Source: Escherichia phage BEK7. From it: DNA of 51,031 nt. Every line of letters begins with the position of its first letter. The stretch's first letter is position 1. The stretch lies in sequence record MN158209.1; one strand, written 5' to 3'. The notes below the pieces were generated by a model. It was not told the origin of the DNA and made no database searches. It was given only the letters and a program-made list of their open reading frames with translations. A program made the position numbers and the translations under genes. Below, piece after piece: positions 28,889 to 36,601 of this stretch.

Positions 28889-30916
28889 ATGATTCCAAAC
28901 ATTGAAAAGCAAATATCAGCACTTGGTGAAGCGGTAATTAAATCCATTCAGGAGCGATTCACTGTTGGCGATATTGTGCCTTACCCTTACCAGTGCGTTG
29001 CATACGCTGAGATCGCAAAGCGTATGAAAAATTATGAGCATCCATTCTTTGTTAAAGCGTCGGTATCGTCTGGCAAAACATTGATGTTTGCAATGGTTGC
29101 TCACCAGTGCCGGAAAATGTGCTTAAAAATGATGGTTCTTGCTCGCCAGGCTGAGATTGTGGATCAAGATTCTGAAGAGATAACAAATCTTGGCGTGCCG
29201 AACTCCATCTATTGTGCAGGACTGAAGACAAAAAGCGCATACTTTCCGATCGTTGTTGGTTCTGAGGGAACTGTAGTTAATGGACTGTTTAAAGCGCTTG
29301 GCGACTATGTTCCGCACGTTATCGGGATTGACGAGTGTCACCAGGTGGATTGGGAAGACCTTGCCGACGCCATAGAGAAAGACGAGTCATTTTTACAAAT
29401 GACGACAAAGAAAGGCGAAAAAGTACAAAATCCAGATTATGACGTAGCGAGCGATAACGAATGCGAAGAATTCCTGATTGGTGAGGATGGCTTGCCAATG
29501 GAGGGAACAGGCCGCACACAATACACTGTCATTATCATGGAAATGATGCGACGTTGCAGGAAAGCATATGGTCATGAACTGCGCATCTTTGGTATGACTG
29601 GATCGGAGTTTCGCGGCGTAGTTCCAATACTGGTAGAAGATAAAAAACAAAAAGGATTCTGGCGCGAACAGGTTACTAATATTGATACCAACTACCTTAT
29701 CAAGTTTGGCTCGGTTGTGCCTACCAATTTTGGCGACGTTGGCGATCTAGGTTATGACCTTTCAGAGTTTGAGGCATCCAGTGAGGACGGCGTTGAAGAC
29801 TTTGACCAGAAAACTCTGCGCAAGATGGAGGAGAAGATCCATAATGATGCAACCATGACGCAAAAAATCATGTCACGCGTGCATGAGATCTGCAAAGACC
29901 GCAACGGCGTGCTGGTAACTTGCGCAGGTGAGCGTCACTGTAAAGAGGCCGCTGCCGCACTTCCGACAGGCACGACATACAGAATCATCACTGGCAAGAC
30001 GGGAGAGAAACAGCGTAAGGAGTGGTTAAGGGAAGCATTCGAGGGAAAGGTAAAATACATTTTCCAGGTTCAGGCGCTAACAACTGGCGTTAACCAGCCG
30101 TTATGGGATACTTCCGTCATTCTGCGTAAAATCAGATCACTAACGTTGCTGATTCAGCTTTTAGGGCGCGGTATGCGACTGCTTAAGAAATGGCATATTG
30201 AGCAAGGATTCACGAAAAACGATCACCTTGTTCTTGATTTCGCCGGAACGATGGACGAGCTAGGGGATTTATATTTCGATCCTATACTTGAGCAAGCGCA
30301 ATTCCAGAAGCGATTCACCAACGGGAAAGATCCGAAAACTTGCCCGATATGCAAGACGCTGAATAGCTACTACGCGCGCCGTTGTATGCACGTAGACGAA
30401 AGCGGAAAACGGTGTGAGCACTTCTGGACGTATCGCGAATGCACAGACCAGGTAGATCCGAGAACGAAAAAGATTATTCATCGCGGTTGCGGAACAAAAA
30501 ACGACGTAGTGGCGAGAGTATGCCGTTGTTGCGATATTTCTCTTGTCGATCCTAACGAGAAGTTAAGCGGCAAGCACTACACGAAAAACGATTACATGAG
30601 TGTTAAATCGTTCCGTGTTGACATGACAAAAAACCAGAAAGGTATCGTTTTTTGCTATGAGCTTGATTATCATGGGGAAACATTCAAGGCATACGAAAGA
30701 TTTTTCCCTGAGTCAGAAAGCAACATTTGCCGGACGATATGGAGAAAAATAGCATTGCAGCACATACCGGATCGCAAGATTGCTGGTATGGTGGCGAGCT
30801 ATAGAAATGCGCGTAAAATTATGGCATACGCCCATCACATCATGCCGCCAGTACGCGTGACGCATCGCAAGACGGCGAAAGGAGAGGACAACATTGCTAA
30901 ACGGGAGTTTGCTTAA
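28889..30916 (+). CDS. SF2 DNA helicase (DExH box)
   Basis: Walker A VSSGKT, DECH box (IGIDECHQV), C-terminal Cys-rich zinc-finger-like region; start could also be 28868. Confidence 0.75.
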   Translation: MIPNIEKQISALGEAVIKSIQERFTVGDIVPYPYQCVAYAEIAKRMKNYEHPFFVKASVSSGKTLMFAMVAHQCRKMCLKMMVLARQAEIVDQDSEEITNLGVPNSIYCAGLKTKSAYFPIVVGSEGTVVNGLFKALGDYVPHVIGIDECHQVDWEDLADAIEKDESFLQMTTKKGEKVQNPDYDVASDNECEEFLIGEDGLPMEGTGRTQYTVIIMEMMRRCRKAYGHELRIFGMTGSEFRGVVPILVEDKKQKGFWREQVTNIDTNYLIKFGSVVPTNFGDVGDLGYDLSEFEASSEDGVEDFDQKTLRKMEEKIHNDATMTQKIMSRVHEICKDRNGVLVTCAGERHCKEAAAALPTGTTYRIITGKTGEKQRKEWLREAFEGKVKYIFQVQALTTGVNQPLWDTSVILRKIRSLTLLIQLLGRGMRLLKKWHIEQGFTKNDHLVLDFAGTMDELGDLYFDPILEQAQFQKRFTNGKDPKTCPICKTLNSYYARRCMHVDESGKRCEHFWTYRECTDQVDPRTKKIIHRGCGTKNDVVARVCRCCDISLVDPNEKLSGKHYTKNDYMSVKSFRVDMTKNQKGIVFCYELDYHGETFKAYERFFPESESNICRTIWRKIALQHIPDRKIAGMVASYRNARKIMAYAHHIMPPVRVTHRKTAKGEDNIAKREFA

Positions 30917-31386
30917 TGAATTGGCATGATATTTTTTCATATGATAATGGTCGCCTTTTTTGGGCGACCAAAAGAGCAAACTGCATAAAAGTAGGTGACG
31001 AGGCAGGATTTTTACATCACCAAGGATACAGATTTGTTTGCATAAACGGGAAACAATTTGCAATCCATAGAATAGTATGGGAGATGCACTACGGAAAAAT
31101 ACCATATGGATATGAAATAGATCATATTAACGGCATAAGAGATGATAACCGCATAGAAAACTTGCGTCTGGTTATGAGAATCGACAACATGAAAAACAAA
31201 GCTACGTATAGGAATAACAAAAGCGGATTTGCTGGTGTTTCATGGGATAAAAGTAAGTCTAGATGGGTGGCAAAAATTGCAAACAAAAAACTAGGTGACT
31301 TCAAAAGCATAATTGATGCCGTGAATGCAAGAATAGTTGCAGAAGTTAGCTCAGGATTTCACAAAAATCACGGGAGGAAGCAGTGA
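30916..31386 (+). CDS. HNH homing endonuclease
   Basis: HRIVWEMHYGKIPYGYEIDHINGIRDDNRIENLRLV plus AP2-like C-terminus. Confidence 0.85.
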   Translation: MNWHDIFSYDNGRLFWATKRANCIKVGDEAGFLHHQGYRFVCINGKQFAIHRIVWEMHYGKIPYGYEIDHINGIRDDNRIENLRLVMRIDNMKNKATYRNNKSGFAGVSWDKSKSRWVAKIANKKLGDFKSIIDAVNARIVAEVSSGFHKNHGRKQ

Positions 31387-33327: not shown

Positions 33328-33426
33328 GGGTTATTATCATGTGGCGCTTGTTATATCTTCCGCTACCCGCTATCATTGCGACCGCTATCATGTATAGTAT
33401 CGTAATGCACCAATAGGAGAAACATC

Positions 33427-34545
33427 ATGAGTCAAAGCAAGATAACCGACGAGCAATTCACGCATGAGCGATTAAAGGGTAAGAGCTATCGACAGATTGC
33501 TGAGGAATACGGCCTGAATGTTCGCAGCGTCGAGCGCCGAGCGGCACGACTGGCAAAGCAGGGAAAAATAACCACTGTAGGAACGCCTGGTTTTGGTGTT
33601 CACGGCGAATCGGTCATGACCGACAAAGAAGGTAACGTGATCCTCAAATGGACAAAGACCAGTAAGGACAAAGAGCAACTGGAAGCGTTGATGCGCGCAG
33701 CTATGGACGCTTTTACCGAAGAATTACCTCGTGTAGATCCGACACCAGAAGAAACAATAAAATACAGAGAAAGCCTTGCCCTTTACCCCGTTTTTGATAT
33801 GCACCTGGGAGCTATGGCGCACAAGCACGAATGCGGCGAGAATTGGGATACATCAACGGCAGAGAAGGTAATGAATGACTTTTTCGATTATGCTGTGGCC
33901 TGCGCCCCGTTCAGCGAGAAAGCAGTGCTGCTGATTGGCGGCGACATGCTTCACAGTGACGGCCTGGAAGCGGTAACTCCTGCAAGCGGTCACGTATTGG
34001 ATCAAGATAGCCGATACGCAAAATTAGTTTACGTTGCAATTCGTGCCGTCCGTCGAGCCATTGAGTTGATGCTCAAAAAACACAAAGAAGTCGAGATCCA
34101 GATAATTGAGGGCAACCATGACCAAAGCGGCATGATCTGGTTACGTGCAGCTATGGCGGCGGCATATGAAAAAGAGCCTCGCGTTTACGTTGATGTATCG
34201 CCGCGAGTGGTTCACCATACGCAGTACGGAAAAACATTCCTTGCATATCATCACGGTCACACCGTCCGAAAGCCGGAAACATTGCTAATGATGTGCGCAG
34301 CAGACTGGCGGGAGGACTTTGGAAACTCAAAAACTATGTATGCGCACGTAGGGCATTTTCATCATCAGACTGTAACAGAAACATCGCTAGGCATTGTTGA
34401 AGTACATAGCACGATGGCAGCTAAAGACGCATACGCCGCGCGAGGCGGTTGGCGTTCCCGTCGCCGTGCTGCGGTTATCATTTACGACAAAGAACACGGC
34501 GAAATCGGACGCTTTATGTTTTATCCTGAAATGGCAGATAAATAA
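33427..34545 (+). CDS. calcineurin-like metallophosphoesterase with N-terminal HTH domain
   Basis: Phosphoesterase motifs DMH, GGDMLHSDG, EGNHD and His-rich HVGHFHH; N-terminal HTH-like YRQIAEEYGLNVRSVERR. Confidence 0.6.
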   Translation: MSQSKITDEQFTHERLKGKSYRQIAEEYGLNVRSVERRAARLAKQGKITTVGTPGFGVHGESVMTDKEGNVILKWTKTSKDKEQLEALMRAAMDAFTEELPRVDPTPEETIKYRESLALYPVFDMHLGAMAHKHECGENWDTSTAEKVMNDFFDYAVACAPFSEKAVLLIGGDMLHSDGLEAVTPASGHVLDQDSRYAKLVYVAIRAVRRAIELMLKKHKEVEIQIIEGNHDQSGMIWLRAAMAAAYEKEPRVYVDVSPRVVHHTQYGKTFLAYHHGHTVRKPETLLMMCAADWREDFGNSKTMYAHVGHFHHQTVTETSLGIVEVHSTMAAKDAYAARGGWRSRRRAAVIIYDKEHGEIGRFMFYPEMADK

Positions 34546-34546
34546 A

Positions 34547-34717
34547 ATGAAAGTACGTTGCACCAGAAACACATCTAAGCAATTGCCCTACACCGTCGGC
34601 CTGATTTACACGTCGGTAGCAATCCCTGGCGGGATGTATGAGATCCGCGACGGACAAGGTAGCGCGATTATCGCACCACTACACGGCTATTATCTGACTT
34701 TTTCGCCAGTAGAATGA
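34547..34717 (+). CDS. hypothetical small protein
   Basis: 57-aa ORF starting at ATG overlapping previous stop (TAAAATG). Confidence 0.3.
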   Translation: MKVRCTRNTSKQLPYTVGLIYTSVAIPGGMYEIRDGQGSAIIAPLHGYYLTFSPVE

Positions 34718-34740
34718 CCATATAAAACATTAACTTATAA

Positions 34741-34772
34741 GGAGGCTTGATTTTTAAGTCTCCTTTTTTTAT
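34741..34772 (+). terminator. rho-independent terminator
   Basis: GGAGGCT-loop-AGTCTCC followed by 7-nt T-run. Confidence 0.6.
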
Positions 34773-34840
34773 TTATTTTTTCAGCACAATGTTTAAAATA
34801 CAATCATCACTATTGACATTTGAATAAAGAGGATCTAAAT

Positions 34841-35956: not shown

Positions 35957-36199
35957 TTATTCAATACGCTTTACAGTAACCAATAAAACGCCGTCATCAT
36001 CACACAAATTATGCTCTGATATGTTAAACGCTCGCATGTCAGAATGAATTAGCGTTAACATTGCGTGCATGAAGTCGCCATGTGAGATTTGAGAAGTAGC
36101 GCAAAACTTAAGAATTTCATCTATCAGTTTACTTTCCATGATTTTCATGATAACCAAGTTTAGCCTCTGCTTGTTCTCTTGCCATAATTGCATCATCAA
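35957..36199 (-). CDS. hypothetical protein
   Basis: 80-aa ORF, last gene of leftward cluster. Confidence 0.35.
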   Translation of the reverse strand: MMMQLWQENKQRLNLVIMKIMESKLIDEILKFCATSQISHGDFMHAMLTLIHSDMRAFNISEHNLCDDDGVLLVTVKRIE

Positions 36200-36214
36200 T
36201 GCTTGAAAATAATC

Positions 36215-36601
36215 CTAAATGAATACTCTTACCTTTATCATATATGGTTGCATGCCATTTCTTTCTTTCTTCCTCCAGCACACTCCAACCCTACCAGATT
36301 TATTTCTTTTTAGTAGAGATACGTTTTTGCTGTTCTCTAATCTTGATGCAAGCCTTAAATTTTCAATCCTGTTATCCAACCTATTGTGCCATATATGATC
36401 TATCTCCATTCCTTCTGGTATTTTTCCATTGTGCATTTCCCATATTATTCTATGAGCCAAAAGCAATACACCATTATACCTTATTCTTACATAGCCATTT
36501 TTATCTACACATCCAGCAACGATTCCTGGCTTTGCTTTTCCCCTTCTGTTTCTCCATCTCAATATTCCATTGTCATATATAAATATTTTATTCCAATCCA
36601 T
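36215..36601 (-). CDS. HNH homing endonuclease
   Basis: HRIIWEMHNGKIPEGMEIDHIWHNRLDNRIENLRLA. Confidence 0.85.
   Translation of the reverse strand: MDWNKIFIYDNGILRWRNRRGKAKPGIVAGCVDKNGYVRIRYNGVLLLAHRIIWEMHNGKIPEGMEIDHIWHNRLDNRIENLRLASRLENSKNVSLLKRNKSGRVGVCWRKKERNGMQPYMIKVRVFI

What the first reader, a model, noticed from the sequence alone, without database searches (positions are those of the whole stretch)
33427..34545. Metallophosphoesterase fused to an N-terminal HTH domain
The calcineurin-like phosphoesterase motifs (GDxxH-like GGDMLHSDG, GNHD, His-rich HVGHFHH) are preceded by a helix-turn-helix-like segment. DNA-binding plus phosphoesterase is an unusual combination. It could be a DNA-targeted nuclease or phosphatase, or a protein phosphatase with a regulatory DNA-binding module, located just upstream of the lysis genes.
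Basis: partly seen in the sequence, partly recalled or inferred. Interest (0 to 1): 0.4.

Follow-up and report, generated by a model that had tools for sequence, protein, structure and literature searches.

The report
Phage HTH-fused Mre11-like phosphoesterase gene
This gene of a T1-like coliphage really does fuse a small DNA-binding helix-turn-helix domain to an intact metallophosphoesterase, but the fusion is the standard form of a very large, already catalogued and untested phage family ("DNA repair exonuclease"), and it most likely cuts DNA during phage replication or repair and has no role in lysis.

Summary
Window 33427-34545 (+) is a 372-aa ORF. It has an N-terminal three-helix HTH (res 8-44), a beta-hairpin plus helix (56-97), and a metallophosphoesterase (MPE) domain (113-372) with all five catalytic motifs.

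The window is Escherichia phage BEK1-23/BEC3 (Drexlerviridae). The protein matches PHROG 704 "DNA repair exonuclease" over its full length (E 7.5e-148). The phage T1 orthologue is annotated as an SbcD-like exonuclease.

The fusion is not unusual for phages. Homologues occur in about 2,040 phage genomes and 4,615 protein clusters (50% identity), and nearly all carry the HTH.

In unrelated phages the gene sits among replication and repair genes: O-like initiator/DnaB, exonuclease/endonuclease VII/PNKP/ligase, SSB, RusA/ligase. In the window a strong predicted terminator separates it from the holin.

Best reading: an HTH-tethered, Rad50-independent DNA nuclease. Protein phosphatase and lysis roles are disfavoured. 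No experiment on this family was found. Interest is modest.

The parts
33427..34545 (+). CDS, 372 aa: HTH-fused metallophosphoesterase (PHROG 704 'DNA repair exonuclease'; orthologue of phage T1 Orf16/CPTT1_064)
   Evidence: ORF. PHROG 704, E 7.5e-148, res 4-370. 100% identical to BEK1-23, BEK12B and BEC3. T1 annotation.
33415..33419 (+). Shine-Dalgarno-like AGGAG, 7 nt before the ATG
   Evidence: Read directly from the sequence.
33448..33558 (+). N-terminal helix-turn-helix domain (res 8-44; helices 8-16, 21-28, 32-44; basic third helix NVRSVERRAARLAKQGK)
33559..33591 (+). Flexible linker (res 45-55, low pLDDT)
   Evidence: pLDDT below 50 for res 51-55. This region has variable length and insertions across the family.
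33592..33717 (+). Conserved beta-hairpin plus helix module (res 56-97; near-invariant G69 and W75); role unknown
   Evidence: AF2 strands 56-65 and 71-80, helix 82-97. W75 is invariant and G69 near-invariant.
33763..34542 (+). Metallophosphoesterase catalytic domain (res 113-372)
33796..33804 (+). MPE motif I, D124-M-H126 (followed by L-G128: DxHxG as in Mre11)
   Evidence: Invariant in 119 sequences. Aligned to the T. maritima Mre11 'sDwHLG' motif.
33937..33960 (+). MPE motif II, G171-G-D173-M-L-H176-S-D178 (GDxLH type)
   Evidence: D173 is invariant; G172, H176 and D178 are at least 90% conserved. Aligned to 'GDlLHs' of Tm Mre11 and 'GDFLHA' of nuclease MPE.
34111..34122 (+). MPE motif III, G229-N230-H231-D232
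   Evidence: N230 and H231 are invariant. Aligned to GNHD of nuclease MPE/PdeM.
34252..34260 (+). MPE motif IV, H276-G-H278
   Evidence: H276 is invariant.
34351..34362 (+). MPE motif V, G309-H310-F-H312
   Evidence: G309 and H312 are invariant; H310 is at least 90% conserved.
34547..34717 (+). 56-aa DUF7244 ('SH3-like') ORF starting 2 nt after the MPE stop; probably co-transcribed. Not conserved next to the MPE outside T1-like phages
   Evidence: Pfam DUF7244 3.5e-27. phrog_4788. Downstream ORFs are unrelated in other phages. Described in PMC13164509.
34739..34781 (+). Predicted intrinsic terminator (12-bp stem, 3-nt loop, U-tract) that closes the transcription unit before the holin gene at 34820
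   Evidence: Pattern scan. RNA fold -14.2 kcal/mol, z -3.2, 0 of 200 shuffles as stable. T1 has annotated terminators at the equivalent places.

Best explanation
The gene encodes a two-module enzyme. A small LuxR / sigma region-4-like HTH domain is tethered by a flexible linker to an active binuclear metallophosphoesterase of the nuclease type, closest to Mre11/SbcD, PolD-DP1 and nuclease MPE/PdeM.

**Proposed mechanism (inferred).** The HTH, possibly helped by the conserved hairpin-helix module, holds the enzyme on DNA. It takes the place of the capping domain and the Rad50/SbcC clamp that give Mre11/SbcD its grip on DNA. The di-metal centre (D124, H126, D173, N230, H276, H310, H312, with H231 and H176 as catalytic or transition-state histidines) then hydrolyses DNA phosphodiester bonds. 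The activity would be a 3'-5' exonuclease and/or a single-strand or structure-specific endonuclease acting on ends, flaps or hairpins.

**Proposed role (inferred).** It is expressed with the early/middle DNA-metabolism operon (SNF2 helicase, resolvase, Dam) and serves phage DNA replication, recombination or end-processing.

**Shown here:** the domain architecture, intact and conserved catalytic residues, nuclease-type fold and motif similarity, family-wide presence of the HTH, and gene neighbourhoods.

**Not shown:** DNA binding, nuclease activity, the actual substrate, and expression timing.
For: **Catalytic residues.** They are invariant across 119 homologues at 31-54% identity.

**Sequence.** With a profile of the MPE domain alone, the only metallophosphoesterases in the PDB reached at E < 10 are nuclease MPE/PdeM and Mre11/SbcD. 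The alignments run through DxHLG and GD[FL]LH. Among NCBIfam MPE subfamilies, only the ligase-associated endonuclease PdeM recurs, in 22 of 119 members. The T1 orthologue carries a curated HHpred note of 99% probability to E. coli SbcD.

**HTH.** DNA-binding type and family-wide.

**Neighbourhoods in unrelated phages.**
- Lambdoid prophage: O-like initiator, homing endonuclease, this gene, DnaB helicase.
- Autographiviridae mellemsur and a metagenomic podovirus: DNA polymerase, 5'-3' exonuclease, endonuclease VII, this gene, PNKP, and in the metagenomic contig also a ligase.
- Vibrio siphovirus: SSB, this gene, HNH.
- Fletchervirus: RusA, ligase, HTH-less homologue.
- Jedunavirus: primase nearby.
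- Window and T1: helicase, resolvase, Dam, then this gene.

**Separation from lysis.** A predicted terminator lies between the gene and the lysis cassette.

**Precedent.** A different phage MPE, mycobacteriophage Gp48, is an experimentally shown DNase (PMC12287305).
Against: - No biochemical or genetic data exist for any member in the searched literature.
- Sequence matches to Mre11 and PdeM are weak (E 0.04-0.2) and cover only motifs I-III.
- There is no Rad50/SbcC partner and no capping domain, so Mre11-like chemistry on DNA is assumed by analogy.
- Some contexts are uninformative or next to late genes: after the lysis genes in RcIroh, an island in the tail module in Jerseyvirus, unknown neighbours in L014.
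- The copy in Klebsiella phage KB2 looks decayed, so the function is dispensable in some lineages.
Confidence: 0.5

Rival explanations
1. Host-takeover or anti-defence DNase. The enzyme degrades the bacterial chromosome, supplying nucleotides and silencing host defence genes, as shown for mycobacteriophage A10ZJ24 Gp48. The HTH simply raises its affinity for DNA.
For: Gp48, a phage MPE, degrades host genomic DNA in vivo and in vitro and is needed to overcome host defence (PMC12287305). The nuclease-type fold and motifs apply equally here. In podoviruses the gene sits beside exonuclease and endonuclease genes, in the region where T7-like phages place their host-DNA-degrading nucleases; the T7 comparison is from my own knowledge, the context. 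From my own knowledge of the classical literature, phage T1 degrades host DNA; this was not checked here.
Against: A close homologue (67% identity) sits in the replication module of a temperate lambdoid prophage, next to O-like and DnaB genes, where indiscriminate host degradation is less expected. Gp48 has no HTH (motif I at residue 10), and no Mycobacterium phages were among the ten most frequent organism names in the tblastn hits, so homology beyond the superfamily is unshown. Nothing here explains how phage DNA would be spared.
Confidence: 0.2
2. A phosphodiesterase or phosphatase for a non-DNA substrate: cyclic or linear signalling nucleotides (anti-CBASS or anti-Pycsar style, cAMP, Ap4A) or phosphoproteins (like lambda PPase). 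The HTH would serve only for localisation or autoregulation.
Confidence: 0.12
3. Primarily a transcription regulator, for example an activator or antiterminator of the late/lysis operon that follows it, analogous in position to lambda Q. The MPE domain would be a sensory or auxiliary module.
For: The HTH resembles sigma-70 region 4 and LuxR activator domains. In T1-like phages, RcIroh and a Vibrio phage the gene lies close to holin and endolysin genes. A terminator precedes the holin, and the scan found no strong promoter between the terminator and the holin start.
Against: The invariant catalytic residues argue that enzymatic activity is the selected function. Adjacency to lysis genes is absent in the prophage, podoviruses, Fletchervirus, Jedunavirus and the N4-like phage. 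Homologues without an HTH exist. The promoter and terminator scans are consensus matches only.
Confidence: 0.08
4. A non-nucleolytic replisome accessory, analogous to the MPE-fold small subunits of archaeal and eukaryotic polymerases (PolD DP1, Pol alpha/delta/epsilon B-subunits). It would bridge the origin or DNA and the replicative helicase or polymerase.
Against: Polymerase B-subunits have lost the catalytic residues (own knowledge), whereas this family keeps all of them. No OB domain is predicted. The gene occurs both in phages that encode their own DNA polymerase and in T1-like phages where no DNA polymerase is annotated.
Confidence: 0.05

Closest known systems
PHROG 704 'DNA repair exonuclease' and phage T1 Orf16 (CPTT1_064, 'exonuclease', HHpred 99% to E. 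coli SbcD)
   Same: Full-length match (E 7.5e-148, res 4-370 against profile positions 2-389 of 390). Same position in the T1-like genome between the Dam methylase block and the lysis cassette. The fused N-terminal region is part of the family profile.
   Different: Nothing structural; this protein is a member. The family name rests on remote homology only. No experiment was found, and the annotations do not mention the HTH.
Mre11 / SbcD nucleases (with Rad50 / SbcC)
   Different: Only about 185 residues of the catalytic core superpose at 12-15% identity. There is no C-terminal capping domain or Rad50-binding region, since the protein ends with the MPE domain. There is no Rad50/SbcC-like ATPase gene in the window or in T1. 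No NCBIfam Mre11 or SbcD model is matched. It carries an N-terminal HTH instead.
Nuclease MPE / PdeM (ligase-associated DNA-damage-response endonuclease, TIGR04123; PDB 6nvo)
   Same: The best sequence-level PDB hit for the catalytic domain, and the only recurrent NCBIfam MPE subfamily (22 of 119 members). It shares GDFLH and the segment leading into GNHD. It is a stand-alone MPE nuclease with no Rad50-type partner (own knowledge). HTH-MPE or its HTH-less relative lies near a DNA ligase gene in two phages.
PolD small subunit DP1 (3'-5' proofreading exonuclease)
   Different: 15% identity. DP1 has an OB domain and works within a polymerase heterodimer (own knowledge). No PolD large subunit is annotated in the T1 genome or in the relatives examined.
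Mycobacteriophage A10ZJ24 Gp48 (Cluster A phage MPE)
   Same: A phage-encoded MPE with all five motifs, shown experimentally to be a phosphodiesterase and DNase (PMC12287305). It is a functional precedent.
   Different: It has no N-terminal HTH (motif I at residue 10). It is not detectably close in sequence: no Mycobacterium phages were among the ten most frequent organism names in the tblastn hits. Its role, host genome degradation, has not been demonstrated for this family.
Lambda Ser/Thr protein phosphatase (PPP family)
   Same: Both are phage-encoded members of the MPE superfamily.

Membership tests
Metallophosphoesterase (calcineurin-like) superfamily | Five metal-binding/catalytic motifs: DxH, GDxx[DH], GNH[DE], H, GHxH | tested here: met
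   D124xH126, G172D173xxH176, G229N230H231D232, H276 and G309H310xH312 are invariant or at least 90% conserved in 119 homologues.
Metallophosphoesterase (calcineurin-like) superfamily | Alpha/beta sandwich MPE fold | tested here: met
Metallophosphoesterase (calcineurin-like) superfamily | Pfam PF00149 / PF12850 at gathering score | tested here: not met
   Metallophos scores 13.2 bits against a cut-off of 21.5. Only 28 of 119 members hit at E <= 0.01. This is a divergent subfamily, recognised by fold and motifs rather than by the Pfam model.
PHROG 704 (phage 'DNA repair exonuclease') | Full-length match to the family profile | tested here: met
   E 7.5e-148, res 4-370 against profile positions 2-389 of 390.
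Mre11/SbcD nuclease | Nuclease-type MPE core with DxHLG and GDxxH motifs | tested here: met
Mre11/SbcD nuclease | C-terminal capping domain and Rad50/SbcC-binding region | tested here: not met
   The protein ends with the MPE domain at residue 372. Only 183-188 residues superpose on Mre11/SbcD chains of 319-362 residues.
Mre11/SbcD nuclease | Partner Rad50/SbcC ATPase encoded with it | tested here: not met
   No such gene among the window ORFs or in the annotated relatives.
Mre11/SbcD nuclease | Match to curated SbcD/Mre11 sequence models | tested here: not met
   No NCBIfam SbcD or Mre11 hit for this protein or among the 25 most frequent families matched by the 119 relatives. The T1 record cites HHpred 99% to SbcD, which I could not rerun.
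PdeM / nuclease MPE (TIGR04123) | Score above the model cut-off (150 bits) | tested here: not met
   16.4 bits, local match to res 208-238 only.
PdeM / nuclease MPE (TIGR04123) | Operon association with ATP-dependent ligase and Lhr helicase | tested here: not met
   There is no ligase next to the window gene. A ligase is adjacent or near in Fletchervirus and podovirus homologues.
PPP-family Ser/Thr phosphatase (lambda PPase type) | GDxHG, GDxVDRG and GNHE motifs, and PPP fold similarity | tested here: not met
LuxR/GerE / sigma-70 region-4 type HTH DNA-binding domain | Helix-turn-helix fold with a basic recognition helix | tested here: met
LuxR/GerE / sigma-70 region-4 type HTH DNA-binding domain | Pfam family match at gathering score | tested here: inconclusive
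   This protein scores 22.9 bits on Sigma70_r4_2 against a cut-off of 25.7. Relatives reach 1.5e-9 for Sigma70_r4_2 and 2.4e-8 for GerE, but hits are spread over many HTH families.
LuxR/GerE / sigma-70 region-4 type HTH DNA-binding domain | Actual DNA binding | not testable with these tools
   Needs EMSA or ChIP.

The most novel reading that the evidence does not exclude
The family is a distinct class of Rad50-independent, HTH-guided Mre11-like nuclease that is a core replication or recombination factor of thousands of phages. One possibility is a site- or structure-specific cut, directed by the HTH, that starts recombination-dependent or rolling-circle replication or processes concatemer junctions. 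In that case the MPE fold would have been turned into a sequence-targeted DNA-processing enzyme, a combination not yet described biochemically.
Probability: 0.2. Interest if true: 0.6.

Novelty: new member of a known kind. Interest (0 to 1): 0.3.

Why it matters
The practical gain is better annotation. Most GenBank records examined call this gene "hypothetical protein" or "DNA repair exonuclease" and do not note the DNA-binding module. One recent paper groups it with the lysis block (PMC13164509), whereas the evidence here places it with replication and repair genes.

The family is very large: about 4% of sequenced phage genomes carry it, and it forms 4,615 clusters at 50% identity. It spans siphoviruses, podoviruses, myoviruses and lambdoid prophages, yet no experiment on it was found.

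If it is an autonomous HTH-tethered Mre11-like nuclease, it would show how phages dispense with Rad50/SbcC. It could also explain part of T1-type DNA metabolism, such as concatemer processing or host DNA breakdown. For a specialist, a nuclease fused to an HTH is not surprising.

Tried and rejected
1. **Direct sequence search against the PDB.** The full-length protein gave nothing meaningful, only a chance nanobody hit. Profiles were needed.

2. **Related loci from the diverse alignment.** The search for related loci failed because no stretch was conserved enough. I sampled contexts one at a time with the fetch of an annotated region and the look-up of encoding contigs instead.

3. **A conserved, translationally coupled downstream partner (two-component idea).** Rejected. 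DUF7244 follows the gene only in T1-like phages, and the downstream ORFs in Jerseyvirus, Fletchervirus, the N4-like phage and a metagenomic contig belong to unrelated PHROGs.

4. **A functional link to lysis.** Considered because T1-like phages, RcIroh and a Vibrio phage all have lysis genes nearby. Rejected as the main reading because of the terminator and the replication/repair contexts elsewhere.

5. **Homing endonuclease (nuclease plus HTH is typical of these).** Rejected. The gene keeps the same position in the T1-like genomes examined and is classed as persistent in 39 of 42 Tunavirus genomes (PMC13164509), so it is not sporadic.

6. **Defence-system component.** No PADLOC match.

7. **Literature.** Searches for any characterised member found none. 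The T1 genome paper (PMID 14972552) is not held, so I could not check a link to the classical T1 host-DNA-degradation gene.

Full report
**1. Identity of the window and the ORF**

The window is identical to Escherichia phages BEK1-23 and BEC3, both 51,031 bp. Its closest classified relatives are Drexlerviridae, Tempevirinae, Warwickvirus. The finding coincides exactly with a 372-aa ATG-initiated ORF at 33427-34545 (+), preceded by an AGGAG ribosome-binding site. So are motif I (D124-M-H126-L-G) and motif IV (H276-G-H278), which complete the five-motif metallophosphoesterase signature.

**2. The domains are real**

Pfam gives only sub-threshold hits. Five HTH families match res 11-49 (best Sigma70_r4_2, E 6.5e-5, 22.9 bits against a 25.7 cut-off), and Metallophos scores E 0.13. 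PHROGs gives a full-length hit to phrog_704 "DNA repair exonuclease" (E 7.5e-148, res 4-370) and a weaker hit to phrog_284 "exonuclease".

An AlphaFold2 model built on 119 diverse homologues is confident (pLDDT 91.5). It shows:
- helices at 8-16, 21-28 and 32-44;
- a disordered linker (51-55);
- a beta-hairpin (56-65 and 71-80) followed by a helix (82-97);
- an alpha/beta domain from about residue 113 to the C-terminus.

**3. The fusion is the family norm**

A tblastn search finds homologues in 2,040 of 50,697 phage records, and 1,908 of them cover at least 80% of the query. An exhaustive HMMER scan of 1.84 billion cluster representatives finds 4,615 clusters at E <= 1e-3 and 1,041 at E <= 1e-30. 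The best 150 are mostly 360-420 aa.

Inspection of those 150 shows an N-terminal extension with an HTH-like signature in all but about seven, some of which are fragments. An HMM of res 1-50 built from half of the alignment recovers 54 of 59 proteins in the other half at E <= 1e-3. Individual members hit many different Pfam HTH families: HTH_1 26, Sigma70_r4_2 19, HTH_8 16, GerE 6 and others.

Vibrio phage homologues at first seemed to lack the N-terminus when queried with the window protein. They align from residue 6 when queried with a distant member. A genuinely HTH-less homologue does exist in Campylobacter myovirus NCTC12673 (317 aa).

**4. The enzyme looks active and nuclease-like**

Across 119 sequences at 31-54% identity, the invariant positions are D124, H126, G128, D173, T184, N230, H231, H276, G309 and H312. 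H176, D178, H310 and D232 are at least 90% conserved. That is the complete metal-binding and catalytic set, which points to selection for catalysis.

| Evidence | Result |
|---|---|
| Foldseek | Mj Mre11 and DP1 on top |
| PDB, profile of the catalytic domain alone | Only nuclease MPE/PdeM (E 0.04) and Tm/Pf Mre11-SbcD (E 0.05-5) reached below E 10 |
| NCBIfam MPE subfamilies | Only PdeM recurs, 22 of 119 members |
| T1 GenBank record | Orthologue Orf16 called "exonuclease", HHpred 99% to E. coli SbcD |

**5. It is not a canonical Mre11/SbcD**

- The protein ends with the catalytic domain, so there is no capping or Rad50-binding region.
- No Rad50/SbcC-like ATPase is encoded in the window or in annotated relatives.
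- No curated Mre11 or SbcD model is matched.
- It scores 16 bits against the 150-bit PdeM cut-off.

I therefore describe it as working like an Mre11/PdeM-type nuclease, not as a member of those families. It is a member of PHROG 704.

**6. Genomic context**

In the window and its relatives the gene is the last large gene of a rightward block. The order is SNF2-type helicase, (HNH), VRR-NUC/RecU-like resolvase, Dam methylase, small ORFs, this gene. Two nucleotides after its stop codon begins a 56-aa DUF7244 ORF. After that comes a 12-bp-stem hairpin with a U-tract at 34739-34781 (-14.2 kcal/mol, z -3.2). The holin starts at 34820. T1 has annotated terminators at the equivalent positions. The proximity to lysis genes is real, but it looks like an operon boundary.

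| Phage (group) | Gene order around the homologue |
|---|---|
| E. coli lambdoid prophage (67% identity) | O-like initiator, homing endonuclease, this gene, DnaB-like helicase, then NinB further on |
| Autographiviridae mellemsur | DNA polymerase, exonuclease, endonuclease, this gene, PNKP |
| Metagenomic podovirus L012 | DNA polymerase, 5'-3' exonuclease, endonuclease VII, this gene, PNKP, then ATP-dependent ligase |
| Vibrio siphovirus | SSB, this gene, HNH |
| Fletchervirus NCTC12673 | RusA, ligase, HTH-less homologue |
| Jedunavirus KB2 | Downstream of primase; the copy looks decayed |
| N4-like roseophage | Next to ThyX |
| RcIroh | End of the late operon, after the lysis genes |
| Jerseyvirus AG11 | A three-gene island on the opposite strand inside the tail module |
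| Metagenomic contig L014 | Unknown neighbours |

The last three contexts are uninformative or near late genes. The downstream small ORF is not conserved between groups, so I dropped the idea of a conserved partner protein.

**7. Literature**

The only paper found that mentions the gene in T1-like phages lists it as "DNA repair exonuclease" within a conserved exonuclease-SH3-holin-endolysin-spanin block, without analysing it (PMC13164509). No functional study of this family was found.

A different phage MPE, mycobacteriophage A10ZJ24 Gp48, has no HTH. It has been shown to be a phosphodiesterase and DNase that degrades host DNA and counteracts defence (PMC12287305). It is a functional precedent, not a demonstrated homologue.

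**8. Interpretation**

The best-supported reading (about 0.5) is an HTH-tethered, Rad50-independent DNA nuclease serving phage replication, recombination or end-processing.

| Rival reading | Confidence | Main point against |
|---|---|---|
| Host-DNA-degrading or anti-defence DNase | ~0.2 | Close homologue in the replication module of a temperate prophage |
| Hydrolase of a non-DNA substrate | ~0.12 | Universal HTH, DNA-repair neighbours, nuclease-only sequence matches |
| Late-gene transcription regulator | ~0.08 | Invariant catalytic residues; lysis adjacency not general |
| Non-catalytic replisome accessory | ~0.05 | Catalytic residues retained; no OB domain |

A protein phosphatase role and a lysis role are disfavoured.

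**9. Verdict**

The claim that the combination is unusual does not hold within phages, and the family is already catalogued. Interest is modest (0.3). Its value is a corrected annotation and a clear set of experiments for a very widespread, untested phage enzyme.

Noticed in passing
window 34547-34781 (+): The 56-aa DUF7244 ('SH3-like') ORF starts 2 nt after the phosphoesterase stop codon. A strong predicted terminator (34739-34765 plus U-tract) follows it, before the holin. That fits the end of the upstream transcription unit better than membership of the lysis cassette, as proposed in PMC13164509.
   Followed up: partly
window 33339-33416 (+): A 25-aa hydrophobic mini-ORF (MWRLLYLPLPAIIATAIMYSIVMHQ) with a GAGGG ribosome-binding site lies immediately upstream of the phosphoesterase gene. 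A short CDS is annotated at the corresponding position in phage MatMar. Its function is unknown.
   Followed up: no
window 36129-36601 (-), compared with 30916-31386 (+): An HNH-type homing-endonuclease-like gene appears split between two reading frames (ORFs of 128 aa and 50 aa). An intact 156-aa paralogue sits between the helicase and the VRR-NUC gene. The split copy is probably frameshifted or decaying.
   Followed up: no
GenBank records MG065636-MG065685 (hits H9-H23): Many records labelled 'Campylobacter phage' (host C. jejuni, 22-50 kb, unannotated) carry a gene about 79% identical in nucleotide sequence to this T1-like coliphage gene. The host label may be wrong, or the lysates may have been contaminated with a T1-like phage.
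   Followed up: no
L010 7665-12559 (E. coli GCA_005390225.1 prophage): A lambdoid prophage carries a 67%-identical homologue inside its replication module: O-like initiator, a 330-aa homing-type endonuclease overlapping the phosphoesterase start, the HTH-phosphoesterase, then a DnaB-like helicase. So the family also occurs in temperate phages.
   Followed up: partly
L018 4998-6147 (Klebsiella phage vB_KleM_KB2): The homologue is annotated only as a misc_feature and matches in two tblastn pieces. It is apparently a disrupted copy, which suggests the gene is dispensable in some lineages.
   Followed up: no
L004 5609-7358 (Salmonella phage AG11, Jerseyvirus): In Jersey-like phages the homologue forms a three-gene island, transcribed in the opposite direction, in the middle of the tail morphogenesis genes. 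This placement is odd and unexplained.
   Followed up: no
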